Positions 3,773 to 47,811 of a stretch of 64,000 bases of DNA are shown here, piece after piece. The notes beneath the pieces were generated by a model, which had not been told where the DNA came from, searched no databases, and worked only from the letters and a program-made list of their open reading frames with translations. The position numbers were made by a program, and so were the translations under genes. The DNA is from Ostreococcus lucimarinus (taxonomy: Eukaryota), in NCBI GenBank assembly GCA_000092065.1, contig CP000596.1; one strand, written 5' to 3'. Positions within the stretch are counted from its first letter, which is position 1. Each line of letters opens with the position of its first letter.

Positions 3773-4663
3773 CTAAACGTCGCACTTGCGCTCGACGATT
3801 TCTATGAGCTCGCACAATTCAGAATCGTCTTCACCATCCGTTCGACGCTCGCGAGCCATTCCTTCCAACACGTTCAACAACCTGGGCGCCGTCGTGAACA
3901 CGTCTTCGTTTTCTTCATCCCCCCCCAGATCCTCTCCGTCCGCCGGCGGCGTCAACGCGTCCTCCACCGCCGCCGCGCGCTCCGCGCCTCGCGGTATCGT
4001 CAGCAACACCTCCGCTATCCTCCGCTCCGGCGCTACAGATTTCAAACTCTCGAACTCTTTCGCCCCGATCTTCGCCCGTCCCGCGATTTCCGTGATCGCA
4101 TTCCTTCGAGACGTCTCGTTTAACGCCGACTGCTTCGCCGCGTTCGACTCCCCCGTCGTCGCGAGCGCGCTCGCCATCGCCCCCCACCGTCGTCGCAATT
4201 CCTCGCCCTGCGCCGTCGTCAGCCCAGTCTCCGTCGTCGTTTCGTCCAGCATCGCTCCCGGAAGCGCGATCGCGGCGTTCGCGATGATCTCATCCATCGC
4301 GTACTCGGCGCGCGCCGCCGCCGCCGCGCACGTCTCGTCCAGCGCCCGCGCCTCGGCCGCTCTCCCCCCCCGCTCCAACGCGCGCACGCGCGCCTCCGCG
4401 ACGTCGAAGAACGTCACCGTGAGTCCATCGCGTCGCGCGCGCACCAGATCGTCGAACGCGCCGTCGCCCGCGTCCCGCGCGCGCGCGAGTTCGTCCAACA
4501 GCGTCGTCGCCGCCGTCGCGTCGTCGTCGTCGTCGTCGTCGCGTCGCGGCGCCGTCGCTCGACGCCGCGTCGACGCCGTCGCCGGCGCGCGCCTCGATCG
4601 CGCGCGTCGAGCGCTCGACGCATCGCCGCGCCTCGCGACGGCGTCGAGACGGGCGACGCGCAT
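3773..4663 (-). CDS. Hypothetical protein (no recognisable domain)
   Basis: 296-aa ORF with balanced composition, D/E-rich and ending ...ELCELIEIVERKCDV. The overlapping plus-strand ORF 3786..4775 is a Ser/Ala-rich frame artefact. Confidence 0.4.
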   Translation of the reverse strand: MRVARLDAVARRGDASSARRARSRRAPATASTRRRATAPRRDDDDDDDATAATTLLDELARARDAGDGAFDDLVRARRDGLTVTFFDVAEARVRALERGGRAAEARALDETCAAAAARAEYAMDEIIANAAIALPGAMLDETTTETGLTTAQGEELRRRWGAMASALATTGESNAAKQSALNETSRRNAITEIAGRAKIGAKEFESLKSVAPERRIAEVLLTIPRGAERAAAVEDALTPPADGEDLGGDEENEDVFTTAPRLLNVLEGMARERRTDGEDDSELCELIEIVERKCDV

Positions 4664-12443: not shown

Positions 12444-14246
12444 CTAATCGATACAACGTATGTCTAATACCGCCTCATTACCTAGTATCGTCGGACACTC
12501 GACGACGCCCCGTTCATTTGGTTTTAATTGGCCGTGCTTGTTCGAGCCGAACCCCCACACGCGATTGGTTTCATCGACTCCTACGACATGTTTCGTACCG
12601 GCGCTCACCGACACCAACTTGGGGAGGCCTTCGAGCTTCTGAGGCACGTACACTTTCGACCCGACATGCCCGCACGCATAGTCGTCGTTCGAGCCCCACG
12701 TGAAAAGCTCGCCTTCGTCCGTGAGGCACGCGGAGTGCGCCCCACCCGCCGCGCACGAAACAATCCGATCCGAAACGTCGATTATCGCCATCGCTGGCCA
12801 ATTCCTAGGGCCATCTCGCCCGAGCTGTTTCATCGAGTTGTCGCCCCACGAGTACAAGGCGCCGTCGGTCGTCACCGCCAACGTGTGCTTGGCGCCCATG
12901 TCAAAATCAACCACGCCGTCGATCGTCGCGACGAGCACTGGAGTGTCTCGCACGCATAAGTTATCACCAAGTCCTAAGTTTCCATTTCGATTGTCTCCAA
13001 AGCAATAAAGTCTACCGTCGATGGTTTGGCAGCCCGAGGAATACCGGCAAGCCCGTATTTTAGCGATACGTTTATCCTCGAGCGCGACAATCTGTCTCGG
13101 TGCGCTCGGTGTGTCGAACAATAAAAAGCTCTGGTGCGGTGGCGGCGAACCGCCGCCGTACGTGCGCGATTTTCGTCTACCACCGCCAGCCGTCGGGGAC
13201 CCGCCCAGAGAGATGCGAGACATCGCTTCGCCCATGCGAAACCTCCCGTGGCCGCATTGCCCAGCGGCGTCGCCGCCCCACGACCACACTTTCCCATCAT
13301 CCGTGAGCGCTAAAGCGTGCACTCGTCCCAGCGCAAGCTGAACCACACGTGCGTTTGGACCACCAAAATCACGAGGCGACGGCGGCGTCAGGAGCCCCCG
13401 CAGCTCGTCGCGCACCGCGGACGAGTGCCCAAACATCCCCGGTGGCGAGCCCCTCCGCCCGAAACGCGCCTCGTCGTTGGCGCACTCTGTCGCCGTGACT
13501 AAAACCTCACCGTTATGATTCACTCGAATCACGCACGCGTGTCCAGCCACCGCAATCATCGCGCGACCTAACGCGTCGTCGTCCGCCTCGGTCCCGCAGC
13601 CTCGCGTTCGCGTTCGCCCATCCCTCGTCGTCGTCGTCGTCGCGTTTTCGTTCGCCACCGCCACGACGTTTGGAACATTTTTATCGTCCCCCCACATCCG
13701 CTCTCGCGCCTCGACGAACTTCAGAACATCGATCCACGTCTCTCCGCGTCTCGGCGTCTCCTCCGCGCCGCGTCTCCGCGCGCGCCGCTCCGCCGCGCGC
13801 GCCGCGTCTTCCCCGAACCCCATCCGCGCCAGCGTCGCCAGCGCGTCCGCCGCGCAAAACGACAGCGCGTGTATCCGCACGTCTCTCGGCAGCGCGTCGA
13901 GCGCGCCGAGCTCGGGCGCGTCGTCGCCGTCGCGTCGTTCGTTATCCCGGCCGCGTCGTCCACCCCTCGACGTCGTCGCGGCGTCCCCATCGCGCGCGCG
14001 CGCGTCGTCTCGACGCAGACTCGCGCGAAGCATCGACCGCGCCGTCGACGCGCGCGCGCGTCGCGTTCCGCCGTCGCGCGCCGCGTCGACGGCGCGCGCG
14101 CGCCGAACGAACGGACGCCGCGCGAGGCGAAAATCAGCCGCGATCGCGCGTAACGAAGCGTCGAAACGGCCCATGCGAAACCGCGGCGCGCGGAACGATA
14201 AAAAGTGACGCGCGGCGCGTTCGGGGCGCGGCGAGTCACGGTTCAT
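12444..14246 (-). CDS. F-box-like + RCC1-repeat protein
   Basis: Several RCC1 blades are present (HTLAVTTDGALYSWGDNSMKQLG, SAGTKHVVGVDETNRVWGFGSNKHGQL, HALALTDDGKVWSWG). An N-proximal LDALPRDVRIHALSFCAADALATLARM is F-box-like. Confidence 0.75.
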   Translation of the reverse strand: MNRDSPRPERAARHFLSFRAPRFRMGRFDASLRAIAADFRLARRPFVRRARAVDAARDGGTRRARASTARSMLRASLRRDDARARDGDAATTSRGGRRGRDNERRDGDDAPELGALDALPRDVRIHALSFCAADALATLARMGFGEDAARAAERRARRRGAEETPRRGETWIDVLKFVEARERMWGDDKNVPNVVAVANENATTTTTRDGRTRTRGCGTEADDDALGRAMIAVAGHACVIRVNHNGEVLVTATECANDEARFGRRGSPPGMFGHSSAVRDELRGLLTPPSPRDFGGPNARVVQLALGRVHALALTDDGKVWSWGGDAAGQCGHGRFRMGEAMSRISLGGSPTAGGGRRKSRTYGGGSPPPHQSFLLFDTPSAPRQIVALEDKRIAKIRACRYSSGCQTIDGRLYCFGDNRNGNLGLGDNLCVRDTPVLVATIDGVVDFDMGAKHTLAVTTDGALYSWGDNSMKQLGRDGPRNWPAMAIIDVSDRIVSCAAGGAHSACLTDEGELFTWGSNDDYACGHVGSKVYVPQKLEGLPKLVSVSAGTKHVVGVDETNRVWGFGSNKHGQLKPNERGVVECPTILGNEAVLDIRCID

Positions 14247-14312
14247 GACTCGTCATGTGTGTAGGTACTCTCTCAAGGGGCGATATACATTTTTCCGGCG
14301 AGATCTCGAGTA
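14237..14312 (+). repeat. Copy A (5'-truncated, diverged TATACAT) of an ~87-bp promoter-associated dispersed element
   Basis: cacggttcatgactcgtcatgtgtgtaggtactctctcaaggggcgatatacatttttcc. It overlaps the ATG of the RCC1 gene (atgaaccgtg on the minus strand). Confidence 0.8.
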
Positions 14313-14630
14313 TTTTCGACATTTTTTATCACGGTTAAACAGTCTTAACAGGTGATATAGTACGTACATACAAAATGATAAAAAGTTGCTTCCCGGTGTG
14401 ATTTAGCCACCCCCAGATCTCGCGTCGACGTAACTTTTTATCGATCACGAGATACGCATTGAAGTATCATCCGAGACCATGTATATAAAGTAAATCGTAC
14501 AACATTCGGTGATGCTCGAGCAAACAGTCCGCGAGTGGTTTGAAACTCGCGGTCGGACGGACATCGCGATGCACACGCGCGCGCGACGCTGACGTCTGCG
14601 TAAACAGTGTGTTCGGACATGCGGTGAGTG

Positions 14631-14722
14631 GTGTAAAATACGTACATATCCACGGTTCATGACTCGTCATGTGTGTAGGTACTCTCTAAAGGGGCGATAT
14701 ATAAATTTTTCCGCGTCTCGGC
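14631..14722 (+). repeat. Copy B of the ~87-bp dispersed element with TATA box (gatatataaattttt) and CATGACtcGTCATG palindrome
   Basis: ggtgtaaaatacgtacatatccacggttcatgactcgtcatgtgtgtaggtactctctaaaggggcgatatataaatttttcc. It is near-identical to copy C at 29043..29128 (reverse complement), with one mismatch over about 87 nt. Confidence 0.85.
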
Positions 14723-28873: not shown

Positions 28874-29042
28874 CGCTCGCTCGGTCGCTCGATCGCTCGA
28901 TCGATCGCTCGCGATCCGTCGCGCGCGCGTCGCTGCGGCGTCGGACGCGCGTCCCGATCGACGCCCGTCGTCGTCGCGGATTCAAATCAATCGAATCGCG
29001 CGCGCGAGCTGTCCCGCGCGTCCGCGCGTCCGACCGGACTTT

Positions 29043-29128
29043 GGAAAAATTTATATATCGCCCCTTGAGAGAGTACCTACACACATGACGAGTCATGAAC
29101 CGTGGATATGTACGTATTTTACACCGTT
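29043..29128 (-). repeat. Copy C (reverse orientation) of the ~87-bp TATA-containing dispersed element, in the bidirectional promoter between the Ctf4-like gene and the coiled-coil gene
   Basis: Plus strand: ggaaaaatttatatatcgccccttgagagagtacctacacacatgacgagtcatgaaccgtggatatgtacgtattttacacc. This is the reverse complement of copy B. Confidence 0.85.
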
Positions 29129-29281
29129 TAGTGCCATCTACAATAGAGTATTCCTACCTCGGTGAAAAACACGTTCGCCTCGCCGGCGGACGGGAACGAG
29201 CGCGCGCGTCGCGGGCCGGGCGGGGCGTCGACGCCGACGCGAGTGCGCGACGCCGCGCGGCGAGACCGAGGCGCGCGAACG

Positions 29282-43516: not shown

Positions 43517-44378
43517 GGCGCGCTCTCGCGCGCGCGACGCGCACTGCGGCGAGGCGCGCGAACGCTCGGGACGGCGACGGCTTCGCGCGCCGCGCTACGC
43601 TACGTTTCCATTCTAAATCATCGAGCTCGACGCCGCGCGCACGGCGGCGTCGGCCTGGTACCAAACTAAATCATCCGAACTCTCATCGTCGCTCGCGTCG
43701 TCTCGGTCGTCGCTCGCGTCGCCGTTCACGACGACGCGAACGCGCCGGCGCTCGACGCGCGCGCGCTTCGCCGGCGCGAATCCCGGCTTGGGCGCGTATC
43801 CCTCCACCTCGTCCGTCGTCGCGCGCGCCTCGACGAAGAAAAACGCCCTCAATCCCGCGCTCTGCGGCGGATTTAACGTCGCCATCACCGGCACGAACGC
43901 CCGCACCGCTCGTCTCGACACCGCGTCCGCCGTCTCTTCGCGTTCGTCCTCGCGCGTCGTCGTCGTCTCCGCGTACGCCACCCCTCGCAGATCCATCTCG
44001 TACGCCTCCCTCGTCCGCGTCGCCGTCGTTCCCAGCGTCATCACCACCCTTCGCGGTCGCAATCGTTCGAACGCGCGCGCGTCGAACGCTCGCGCGAGCG
44101 CCCTTCTCGTCTCTCGCGCGCGTCGTCGCCGCGTTCGCTCGCCGCGCGTCCTCGCCCGCGTCCCGCGCGCGCGTCCCTCGTTTCGCCGTCTTCGTCGCGC
44201 GACGCCGACGGCGCGCGAATTGAACGCATCGTCGTCGTCGCGCGCGCCGTCGTCGTCGCGCGCGTCGTCGTCGCGCGCGTCGTCGTCGTCGGTCGTTTCG
44301 TCGTCGTTCGGCGCCGGTTCGCGCGCGCAGTCCCTGGCGTAGAGCGCGAACGCGAACGCCGCGCGCGCGGCTCTGGCG

Positions 44379-47004: not shown

Positions 47005-47373
47005 GTCGACGCGACGACGGCTCGATCGCGCGATCGCGCGATCGCGACTCGATCGACGACGCGCGTTTCGACGCGCGCGCGCGATCGACGCCGCGAGGTT
47101 CGCGCGCGACCGCGCCGATCGATCGGCGTCGACGCGACGACGGCTCGATCGCGCGATCGCGCGATCGCGACTCGATCGACGACGCGCGTTTCGACGCGCG
47201 CGCGCGATCGACGCCGCGAGGTTCGCGCGCGACCGCGCCGATCGATCGGCGTCGACGCGACGACGGCTCGATCGCGCGATCGCGCGATCGCGACTCGATC
47301 GACGACGCGCGCTTCGACGCGCGCGCGCGATCGACGCCGCGAGGTTCGCGCGCGACCGCGCCGATCGATCGGC
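47005..47373. repeat. 123-bp tandem repeat x3 (minisatellite) in the bidirectional promoter region
   Basis: Unit: gtcgacgcgacgacggctcgatcgcgcgatcgcgcgatcgcgactcgatcgacgacgcgcg(t/c)ttcgacgcgcgcgcgcgatcgacgccgcgaggttcgcgcgcgaccgcgccgatcgatcggc. Copies begin at about 47005, 47128 and 47251. They appear as triplicated 41-aa peptides in overlapping ORFs of both strands. Confidence 0.9.
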
Positions 47374-47811
47374 GTCGGCCGCGGTCGCGCGCGCGACTCG
47401 CGCGACGCGCGCGCGAGACGCGCGCGCGGTGGACGATCGCGACGCGGGCGTCGACGCGACGGACGCGCGGTCGACGATCGATCGGCGCGCGCGACGGGCG
47501 CGAGGGAGGCGCGCGCGACGCGGGAGGCGCGCGCGGCGGTGCGGGTTCGGAGAGACGCGCGCGGCGGACGGACGCGCGGGGGCGCGGCGGAGGCGCGGAG
47601 ACGACCGAGGCGCGGTGAGGGAGTCGAGGGGATGCGCGCGCGAGCGATGGTGGGGGTCGAGGGGGGCGCGCGCGGGCGCGCGCGGGCGGTGGGACGCGAA
47701 AGAGGGAGGGACGGCGGGCGACGGCGACGCGCGGCGACGACGAGACGCGCCTCGGTCGTGGATTCCGACGCGGAGAGGGCGGGGAAGGATAAGGCGACGA
47801 AGGGATCGAAA

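What the first reader, a model, noticed from the sequence alone, without database searches (positions are those of the whole stretch)
14237..14722. About 87-bp dispersed element with a TATA box and a TGAC..GTCA palindrome recurs at three 5' gene ends
Copies at 14631..14722 (+) and 29043..29128 (-) are identical except for one base. A third, 5'-truncated copy (14237..14312, +) overlaps the start codon of the RCC1 gene. Each copy contains CATGACtcGTCATG (a bZIP/CRE/AP-1-like inverted repeat) about 30 nt upstream of GGGGCGATATATAAATTTTTCC (a TATA box). All copies sit in divergent or 5' intergenic regions: RCC1 5' end, the HSP20 upstream region, and the Ctf4-like/coiled-coil bidirectional promoter. 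Near-identity over 87 nt argues for recent spread, either a promoter-carrying non-autonomous element or gene-conversion of a promoter module, rather than ancient conserved cis-regulation.
Basis: seen in the sequence. Interest (0 to 1): 0.55.

Follow-up and report, generated by a model that had tools for sequence, protein, structure and literature searches.

The report
Leftover ends of a Mutator-like transposon
The repeated 87-base "promoter element" is the outer end of a Mutator-like jumping gene of the tiny marine alga Ostreococcus lucimarinus, left as one-ended stubs in three gene-upstream regions; this is ordinary transposon biology, not a host regulatory module.

Summary
Three near-identical copies lie in 5' intergenic DNA, against 0 matches expected by chance. 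The window is Ostreococcus lucimarinus CCE9901. The element is not a promoter cassette. It is the outermost 60-139 nt of the terminal inverted repeat (TIR) of a Mutator-like element (MULE).

- **Wild alleles.** Two of ten contigs of the RCC1-HSP20 spacer lack copies 1 and 2. The empty site shows a GGCGAG target-site duplication around copy 1. Copy 2 replaces about 290 nt of host DNA.
- **Family.** A metagenome scan found 25 distinct outer flanks, always after ...AAATTTTTCC.
- **Complete elements.** They carry this sequence at both ends, inverted, with 8-9-bp duplications.
- **Transposase link.** Their internal ORF is a remnant of a protein whose O. tauri homologues carry Ulp1 protease and MULE transposase domains.
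- **Gene ends.** 14 of 15 termini face the 5' end of the nearest ORF, the known Mu-type preference.

The TATA-like box and the CATGAC-TC-GTCATG palindrome are TIR motifs. They most likely serve the element's own inward promoter or transposase binding. Outward promoter activity, as shown for maize Mu, is possible but untested. This is a new member of a known kind, of low to moderate interest.

The parts
14237..14296 (+). Copy 1. A one-ended MULE TIR fragment of 60 nt, with its outer terminus ...TTTTTCC at 14296. T at 14236 is filler.
   Evidence: Exact 37-mer. It is absent from alleles L001 and L007, whose empty site reads CGCGGCGAG|ATCTCGCG.
14230..14235 (.). Left copy of the target-site duplication GGCGAG of copy 1.
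   Evidence: The filled allele reads GGCGAG-T-[TIR]-GGCGAG-ATCTCG. The empty allele has a single GGCGAG.
14297..14302 (.). Right copy of the target-site duplication GGCGAG of copy 1.
14634..14712 (+). Copy 2. A one-ended MULE TIR fragment of 79 nt (83 nt if the GGTG microhomology at 14630-14633 is counted), with its outer terminus at 14712. It contains the palindrome (14658-14671) and the TATA-like box (14698-14705).
   Evidence: In L001 and L007 the same interval holds about 290 nt of unrelated GC-rich host DNA between GGTGAGTGGTG and GCGTCTCGGCACC.
29043..29181 (-). Copy 3. A one-ended MULE TIR fragment of the 'B-end' type, 139 nt, with its outer terminus at 29043, 170 nt from the Ctf4-like ATG (28873) and reading towards it.
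   Evidence: 139 nt at 97.8% to the B-end consensus. It is present in every contig of this locus that could be read. Allele L015 carries a two-ended 135-nt MITE form at the same place.
14309..14414 (.). An unrelated second MITE nested beside copy 1. Its left end is rearranged in this allele. It has an 8-bp duplication AGATCTCG at 14301-14308 and 14415-14422.
   Evidence: The intact form in L003 has 38-nt TIRs. It is absent from L002, L006, L008, L009 and L010.

Best explanation
The repeat is the terminal inverted repeat of a recently active Mutator-like transposon (MULE) family of Ostreococcus lucimarinus.

**How it moves.** Complete, mostly non-autonomous elements carry the sequence at both ends in inverted orientation: 5'-GGAAAAATTTATATATCGCCCC...ACGAGTCATGAACCGTGG... 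and its complement ...TTTTTCC-3'. They insert with 8-9-bp target-site duplications.

**How the window copies arose.** The three window copies are solo-TIR remnants. A full or partial element inserted into open promoter DNA. One end was later lost, or was never integrated. Loss was by a deletion starting at or near the other terminus, sometimes taking flanking host DNA with it (about 290 nt at copy 2). What remains is the exact outer terminus, a truncated inner edge, a partial duplication and 1-5 nt of filler.

**What the motifs are.** The TATA-like box sits 8-15 nt from the tip and the CATGAC-TC-GTCATG palindrome about 42-55 nt from the tip. Both are conserved because they belong to the TIR. 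I infer that they act as the element's own inward promoter for the transposase gene, or as a transposase-binding site, or both.

**Shown and inferred.** Shown: the anatomy, the polymorphism, the duplications, the link to a MULE transposase, and the bias to gene 5' ends. Inferred: the order of events that made the stubs, and the role of the two motifs.
For: 1. **Empty and filled alleles.** L001 and L007 lack copies 1 and 2. The other eight contigs carry both, with GGCGAG duplicated around copy 1. L039 is the empty site for the 270-nt element of L052. L052 is the empty site for a 52-nt stub in L039.
2. **A dispersed family.** There are 25 distinct outer flanks, all starting right after ...TTTTTCC. 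The terminal 52 nt have a median pairwise identity of 98%.
3. **Complete elements.** L030 3842-4648 has arms 98.9% alike over 90 nt and the duplication TCGGATCG. L023 1366-2499 has the duplication CTCTTGACG. L031 with L045/L055 shows TTCTGAGAG. L029 is a 112-nt MITE and L015 a 135-nt MITE.
4. **One locus, two forms.** The same locus carries a complete element in L045, L055 and L022. In L031 it carries a solo TIR with both 9-bp duplication copies plus 'AT' filler.
5. **The transposase link.** The ORF between the arms (L030 165 aa, L038 339 aa) belongs to a protein family. Its O. tauri members P0083 and P0085 carry Peptidase_C48 and PF10551 MULE (42.8-43.1 bits, cut-off 27.6).
6. **Gene 5' ends.** 14 of 15 termini with an ORF of at least 150 aa within 1.3 kb face its 5' end. 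Mu elements are reported to insert often in the 5' regions of genes (bioRxiv 10.1101/2023.06.05.543741).
7. **Negative searches.** No Rfam family matched, and no viral contig matched.
Against: - No autonomous copy with these TIRs flanking a full transposase was recovered. The O. tauri gene is flanked by 498-bp direct repeats, not by these TIRs.
- Duplications around the stubs vary from 3 to 9 bp, and some two-ended copies (L021/L048, L029) show none. The deletion or half-insertion scenario is therefore inferred.
- Metagenome contigs can be chimeric at a 90-140-nt repeat, so some combinations of flanks may be assembly artefacts.
- The scan required an exact 22-mer, which inflates the identity figure and misses diverged copies.
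- ORF orientation was judged from crude ORF calls in an intron-containing region.
Confidence: 0.88

Rival explanations
1. The TIR stubs are working outward-reading promoters or enhancers that now drive, or modulate, the adjacent host genes. Copy 3 would act on the Ctf4-like gene and copy 2 on HSP20. It is compatible with the MULE origin but adds a host function.
For: - The TATA-like box reads outward 8-15 nt from the tip.
- Copies 2 and 3 point at the sense strand of HSP20 and of the Ctf4-like gene.
- Copy 3 is present in every contig that could be read.
- 14 of 15 termini face gene 5' ends.
- Maize Mu insertions often supply an outward-reading promoter.
Against: - No transcript data were available.
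- The box is nearly symmetrical (TTTATATAT on the other strand). It sits about 180 nt upstream of the element's own ORF, so an inward role explains it.
- HSP20 lies 590 nt away, and alleles without copy 2 exist.
- Copy 1 points away from RCC1.
- The 5' bias is equally expected from Mu-type target preference.
Confidence: 0.2
2. It is a host cis-regulatory module (a bZIP-type palindrome plus a TATA box) shared by several promoters and kept uniform by gene conversion.
For: The position in 5' intergenic regions and the near-identity of the copies.
Against: - Presence/absence alleles with target-site duplications.
- A razor-sharp common boundary at ...TTTTTCC next to 25 unrelated flanks.
- The same sequence forms inverted termini around a transposase remnant.
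Confidence: 0.02
3. It is the 3' tail of a SINE or LINE-like retroelement, with copies truncated at the 5' end by target-primed reverse transcription.
For: A constant 3' end, variable 5' truncation points (34, 52, 60, 73, 79 and 139 nt) and short duplications of variable length.
Against: - Two-ended copies carry the sequence inverted at both ends with 8-9-bp duplications.
- The internal ORF is MULE-related, not a reverse transcriptase.
- There is no poly(A) or simple-repeat tail.
- A stub and a complete element occupy the same site with the same 9-bp duplication.
Confidence: 0.03

Closest known systems
Maize Mutator (Mu1/MuDR) and plant MULEs, including the Ulp1-protease-carrying 'KI-MULE' type
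   Same: - Long TIRs (about 90-140 nt here) and 8-9-bp target-site duplications.
- A MURA-type PF10551 domain in the related full-length protein, fused to or accompanied by a Ulp1 (C48) protease domain.
- Many internally deleted non-autonomous derivatives.
- Insertion near gene 5' ends.
- A promoter-like sequence inside the TIR.
   Different: - The host is a 13-Mb picoalga described as TE-poor (bioRxiv 10.1101/2025.04.21.649811).
- Many copies are one-ended stubs.
- No autonomous copy with these TIRs was recovered.
- The SWIM-like motif is degenerate.
- Promoter activity is untested.
MULEs reported in Ostreococcus tauri outlier chromosomes (bioRxiv 10.1101/2025.04.21.649811)
   Same: The same superfamily and a closely related transposase: P0083 and P0085 fall in one 90%-identity cluster with fragments from the O. 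lucimarinus-type contigs. Both are enriched in low-GC outlier regions.
   Different: That work describes O. lucimarinus as largely lacking TEs. Here the family is documented in O. lucimarinus populations, including stubs on a standard high-GC chromosome. The O. tauri locus examined has no matching TIRs.
MITEs (miniature inverted-repeat transposable elements)
   Same: L029 (112 nt), L015 (135 nt) and L052 (270 nt) are short, non-coding, bounded by TIRs and polymorphic.
   Different: The three window copies have only one terminus, so they are not MITEs in the strict sense.

Membership tests
Mutator superfamily (MULE) | Long terminal inverted repeats | tested here: met
   L030 arms 3842-3931 and 4559-4648 are 98.9% alike over 90 nt. 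L023 arms are 100% alike over 90-92 nt.
Mutator superfamily (MULE) | Target-site duplication of about 9 bp (range 8-11) | tested here: met
   L030 TCGGATCG (8 bp), L023 CTCTTGACG (9 bp), L031 with L055 TTCTGAGAG (9 bp). The stubs keep 3-7 bp of it.
Mutator superfamily (MULE) | MURA-type DDE transposase (Pfam PF10551) encoded between the TIRs | tested here: inconclusive
   The ORFs between the TIRs are N- and C-terminal remnants. Full-length relatives in O. tauri carry PF10551 (42.8-43.1 bits against a cut-off of 27.6) plus Peptidase_C48. No autonomous copy bounded by these TIRs was recovered.
Mutator superfamily (MULE) | Evidence of mobility (insertion polymorphism) | tested here: met
   Empty and filled alleles at the RCC1-HSP20 spacer (2 of 10 contigs empty) and at two sites compared between L039 and L052.
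Host promoter module (bZIP/CRE site plus TATA box) | Transcription starts about 30 nt downstream, and expression depends on the motif | not testable with these tools
   No transcript or TSS data were available.
Host promoter module (bZIP/CRE site plus TATA box) | A stable, non-mobile component of the promoter across alleles | tested here: not met
   It is absent from alleles L001 and L007. It is flanked by duplications, and it has the same sharp boundary next to 25 unrelated flanks.
SINE / non-LTR retroelement tail | A single orientation with a 3' poly(A) or simple-repeat tail, and a reverse-transcriptase partner | tested here: not met
   Inverted two-ended copies occur, there is no tail, and the internal ORF is MULE-related.
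Known structured RNA (Rfam) | A match to a covariance model | tested here: not met
   No match at the gathering threshold in the window, and only chance-level hits around the copies.

The most novel reading that the evidence does not exclude
The solo TIRs may not be inert scars. Copy 3, present in every contig that could be read and 170 nt from the ATG, may have been exapted as the outward-reading core promoter or regulatory site of the Ctf4-like gene. The family as a whole may supply portable minimal promoters in an extremely compact genome. In addition, the inverted copies 1 and 3 may mediate a segregating 14.3-kb inversion, because one contig, L013, shows the junction expected of that inversion.
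Probability: 0.12. Interest if true: 0.5.

Novelty: new member of a known kind. Interest (0 to 1): 0.3.

Why it matters
The result removes a tempting false lead, a shared bZIP/TATA promoter module, and replaces it with a concrete and testable object. That object is a recently active MULE family with polymorphic insertions in natural O. lucimarinus populations, a species currently described as nearly free of transposons. It gives population geneticists presence/absence markers. It also shows how one-ended TIR stubs and adjacent deletions remodel promoters in one of the most compact eukaryotic genomes. Beyond that it is ordinary transposon biology.

Tried and rejected
- **Introner-type intron elements.** The GTGAGT next to copy 2 prompted this idea. 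I dropped it because that sequence is host DNA present in the empty alleles.
- **snRNA-type promoter or small RNA gene.** No Rfam match. ARAGORN found only one unrelated tRNA-like call.
- **Prasinovirus-derived sequence.** No exact match in IMG/VR. The low-GC contigs carry host housekeeping genes such as MCM and SNF2.
- **LTR or solo-LTR, and Helitron.** The termini and duplications do not fit (reasoning from the sequences).
- **LINE/SINE tail.** Considered seriously because of the 5' truncation. Rejected on the inverted two-ended copies and the transposase remnant.
- **Recovering the DDE part in O. lucimarinus-type data.** A second homology search gave only six fragments.
- **O. tauri locus of P0083.** It has 498-bp direct repeats and no matching TIR.
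- **Inversion between copies 1 and 3.** Only the singleton junction in L013 supports it. The reciprocal junction was not found in 8 contigs. The look-up with the 600-aa RCC1 ORF found nothing.

Full report

Yes. The 37-nt core CACGGTTCATGACTCGTCATGTGTGTAGGTACTCTCT occurs exactly three times in the window, at 14237 (+), 14651 (+) and 29068-29104 (-). None is expected in 100 dinucleotide-preserving shuffles. The 24-nt TATA-containing end occurs twice. Copies 2 and 3 are 99% identical over 83 nt, 14630-14712 against 29043-29125 (I1). The palindrome CATGAC-TC-GTCATG (14658-14671) lies 27 nt before TATATAAA (14698-14705). The window is a GC-rich, gene-dense eukaryotic genome.

**2. Organism and setting**

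The HSP20 protein is identical to XP_001421852.1 of Ostreococcus lucimarinus CCE9901 and sits on a 428-kb chromosome.
- Copies 1 and 2 lie in the 1-kb spacer between a divergent RCC1-like gene (-) and HSP20 (+).
- Copy 3 lies between the divergent Ctf4-like gene (-) and a coiled-coil gene (+).

**3. Natural alleles settle what it is**

Exact-protein look-ups returned the same loci from many metagenomes.

*The RCC1-HSP20 spacer.* Two of ten contigs (L001, L007) lack both copies.
- For copy 1, the empty site reads CGCGGCGAG|ATCTCGCG.
- The filled site reads CGCGGCGAG-T-[CACGG...TTTTTCC]-GGCGAG-ATCTCGCG. This is an insertion with a GGCGAG duplication and one filler base.
- For copy 2, the filled alleles have the repeat in place of about 290 nt of GC-rich host DNA. 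That DNA is present in L001 and L007 between GGTGAGTGGTG and GCGTCTCGGCACC.
- A second, unrelated MITE (38-nt TIRs, 8-bp duplication AGATCTCG) is nested next to copy 1 in some alleles, including the window (14309-14414).

*The RCC1 start codon.* A 61-nt frameshifting indel segregates inside the long 'RCC1' ORF extension. The ATG at 14246 inside copy 1 is therefore not the real start codon.

*Copy 3.* It is present in every contig of its locus that could be read. Its outer junction is variable: TTTTTCC followed by AAAG, CGAG or CCGCAAG. Allele L015 carries a two-ended form whose left end, GGAAAAATTTAGAT, is the reverse complement of the right end.

**4. Family-wide anatomy**

One scan of JGI metagenome contigs used the 22-mer GTCAYGTGTGTAGGTACTCTCT, which is conserved across the copies seen. 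It returned 35 stretches.
- Oriented alike, all copies end at exactly ...AAATTTTTCC, followed by 25 different flanks.
- The inner side varies. There are stubs of 34, 52, 60, 73 and 79 nt, and longer forms falling into a few classes.
- Most new loci are low-GC (45-50%) but carry housekeeping genes such as MCM and SNF2. That composition matches the low-GC outlier regions described for Mamiellales genomes, but the contigs were not mapped to a chromosome.

Several loci hold two copies tail-outward, which makes them complete elements:
- L030 3842-4648: arms 98.9% alike over 90 nt, 8-bp duplication TCGGATCG.
- L023 1366-2499: 9-bp duplication CTCTTGACG.
- L052 5860-6128, for which L039 is the empty site.
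- L029, a 112-nt MITE.

L039 in turn carries a 52-nt stub that is absent from L052.

At one locus a complete element (L045/L055 at the left junction, L022 at the right) and a solo stub (L031) share the same 9-bp duplication, TTCTGAGAG. The stub keeps both duplication copies plus 'AT' filler. This suggests that stubs can derive from complete insertions through loss of one end.

**5. Which transposon?**

The ORF between the arms is 165 aa in L030, 181 aa in L055 and 339 aa in L038. It has no Pfam hit above threshold. It does belong to a small protein family. That family's 90%-identity clusters include the O. tauri proteins XP_022840218.1 and OUS44268.1. Those proteins carry Peptidase_C48 (Ulp1) and the PF10551 MULE transposase domain, scoring 42.8-43.1 bits against a cut-off of 27.6, plus a ZSWIM-type RNaseH-like match.

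The short ORFs are fusions of the N- and C-termini of this protein, which marks them as internal-deletion derivatives. In L030 the ORF begins about 195 nt from the B-end tip and stops inside the A-end arm.

Long TIRs, 8-9-bp duplications and a MURA-type transposase with a Ulp1 domain define a Mutator-like element. From my own knowledge, Ulp1-carrying MULEs are known in plants as KI-MULEs. MULEs are reported in O. tauri, while O. lucimarinus is described as largely lacking TEs (bioRxiv 10.1101/2025.04.21.649811).

**6. Mechanism**

Shown:
- Insertion with duplications.
- Segregating presence and absence.
- One-ended remnants that always keep the exact tip.
- Adjacent host deletion at copy 2.

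Inferred:
- The stubs arise either from cleavage at one terminus followed by degradation and end-joining, or from half-integration of a broken element. Either route accounts for the partial duplications and the filler bases.
- The TATA-like box and the palindrome are conserved because they are TIR parts. The box is nearly symmetrical and lies about 180 nt upstream of the element's own ORF. An inward promoter, as in MuDR (my own knowledge), or a transposase-binding site is therefore the economical reading.

**7. The promoter idea**

Fourteen of fifteen termini with an ORF of at least 150 aa within 1.3 kb face that ORF's 5' end. The ORF calls are crude and the termini are not all independent. 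This fits the reported tendency of Mu to insert in the 5' regions of genes. It also leaves room for outward-reading promoter activity, which is documented for maize Mu (bioRxiv 10.1101/2023.06.05.543741).

Against a host role here:
- HSP20 is 590 nt from copy 2, and alleles without copy 2 exist.
- Copy 1 points away from RCC1.

No transcript data could be consulted, so the function stays open. I give it about 0.2.

**8. Other checks**

- No Rfam family matched.
- No viral contig matched.
- No further diverged copy is present in the window.
- One contig, L013, joins the RCC1 side of copy 1 to the Ctf4 side of copy 3, as an inversion between the inverted copies would. The reciprocal junction was absent from eight contigs, and a sister assembly has an N-gap at the repeat. 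I treat L013 as a probable scaffolding artefact.

**9. Verdict**

The 'promoter module, bZIP site, start-codon overlap' half is unsupported or wrong.

The thing is a set of MULE TIR remnants. It is a new member of a known kind, of modest interest mainly for Ostreococcus population genomics.

Caveats:
- Metagenome contigs may be chimeric at the repeat.
- The scan needed an exact 22-mer.
- No autonomous copy with these TIRs was found.

Noticed in passing
window 14309-14414 (duplications at 14301-14308 and 14415-14422); L003 9016-9112: A second, unrelated MITE is nested beside copy 1. It has 38-nt TIRs (GGGGGTGGCTAAATCACACCGGGAAGCAACTTTTTATC) and an 8-bp duplication AGATCTCG. Its interior differs in the window, L003, L004 and L005, and it is absent from five other alleles.
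   Followed up: partly
window about 14037-14097: A 61-nt frameshifting indel (alleles L002, L008) lies inside the long RCC1 ORF extension. The annotated-looking ATG at 14246 is therefore not the true start, and the region is 5' non-coding.
   Followed up: partly
L013 (JGI Ga0101440_100301), about 3790-3880 upstream of Ctf4: This contig joins the RCC1/copy 1 flank to the copy 3/Ctf4 flank, the junction expected of a 14.3-kb inversion between the inverted TIR copies. The reciprocal junction was not found in 8 contigs. A sister assembly (L012) has an N-gap exactly at the repeat.
   Followed up: partly
window about 29003-29015: A small palindromic inversion polymorphism, GGGACAGCTCGCG against CGCGAGCTGTCCC, segregates among alleles (L012, L017) just downstream of copy 3's tip.
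   Followed up: no
window 47005-47377: Three head-to-tail copies of a 123-bp unit, 99-100% identical, lie in a very GC-rich stretch (repeat finder family D18).
   Followed up: no
window 44067-44158 (-): ARAGORN calls a 92-nt tRNA-Val(GAC) inside GC-rich, apparently coding or low-complexity sequence. It may be intron-containing or a false positive.
   Followed up: no
L021 7422-11312: A PIF/Harbinger-type DDE_Tnp_4 transposase ORF (597 aa) and an XPG-like nuclease ORF (701 aa) lie next to a MULE TIR copy. This suggests another transposon family in the low-GC region.
   Followed up: no
L056 5204-5701 and 9362-9859 (O. tauri CAID01000013.2): The O. tauri Ulp1 + MULE gene is flanked by 498-bp direct repeats (99.2% identical) rather than by inverted repeats.
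   Followed up: no
L021 11509-11600; L022 8590-8673: Tandem partial duplications of the last 34 nt of the TIR occur at the element tip. In L022 the duplicated piece is separated by 7 bp (TTCTGAG) of the target duplication. This suggests repeated events at the same terminus.
   Followed up: no
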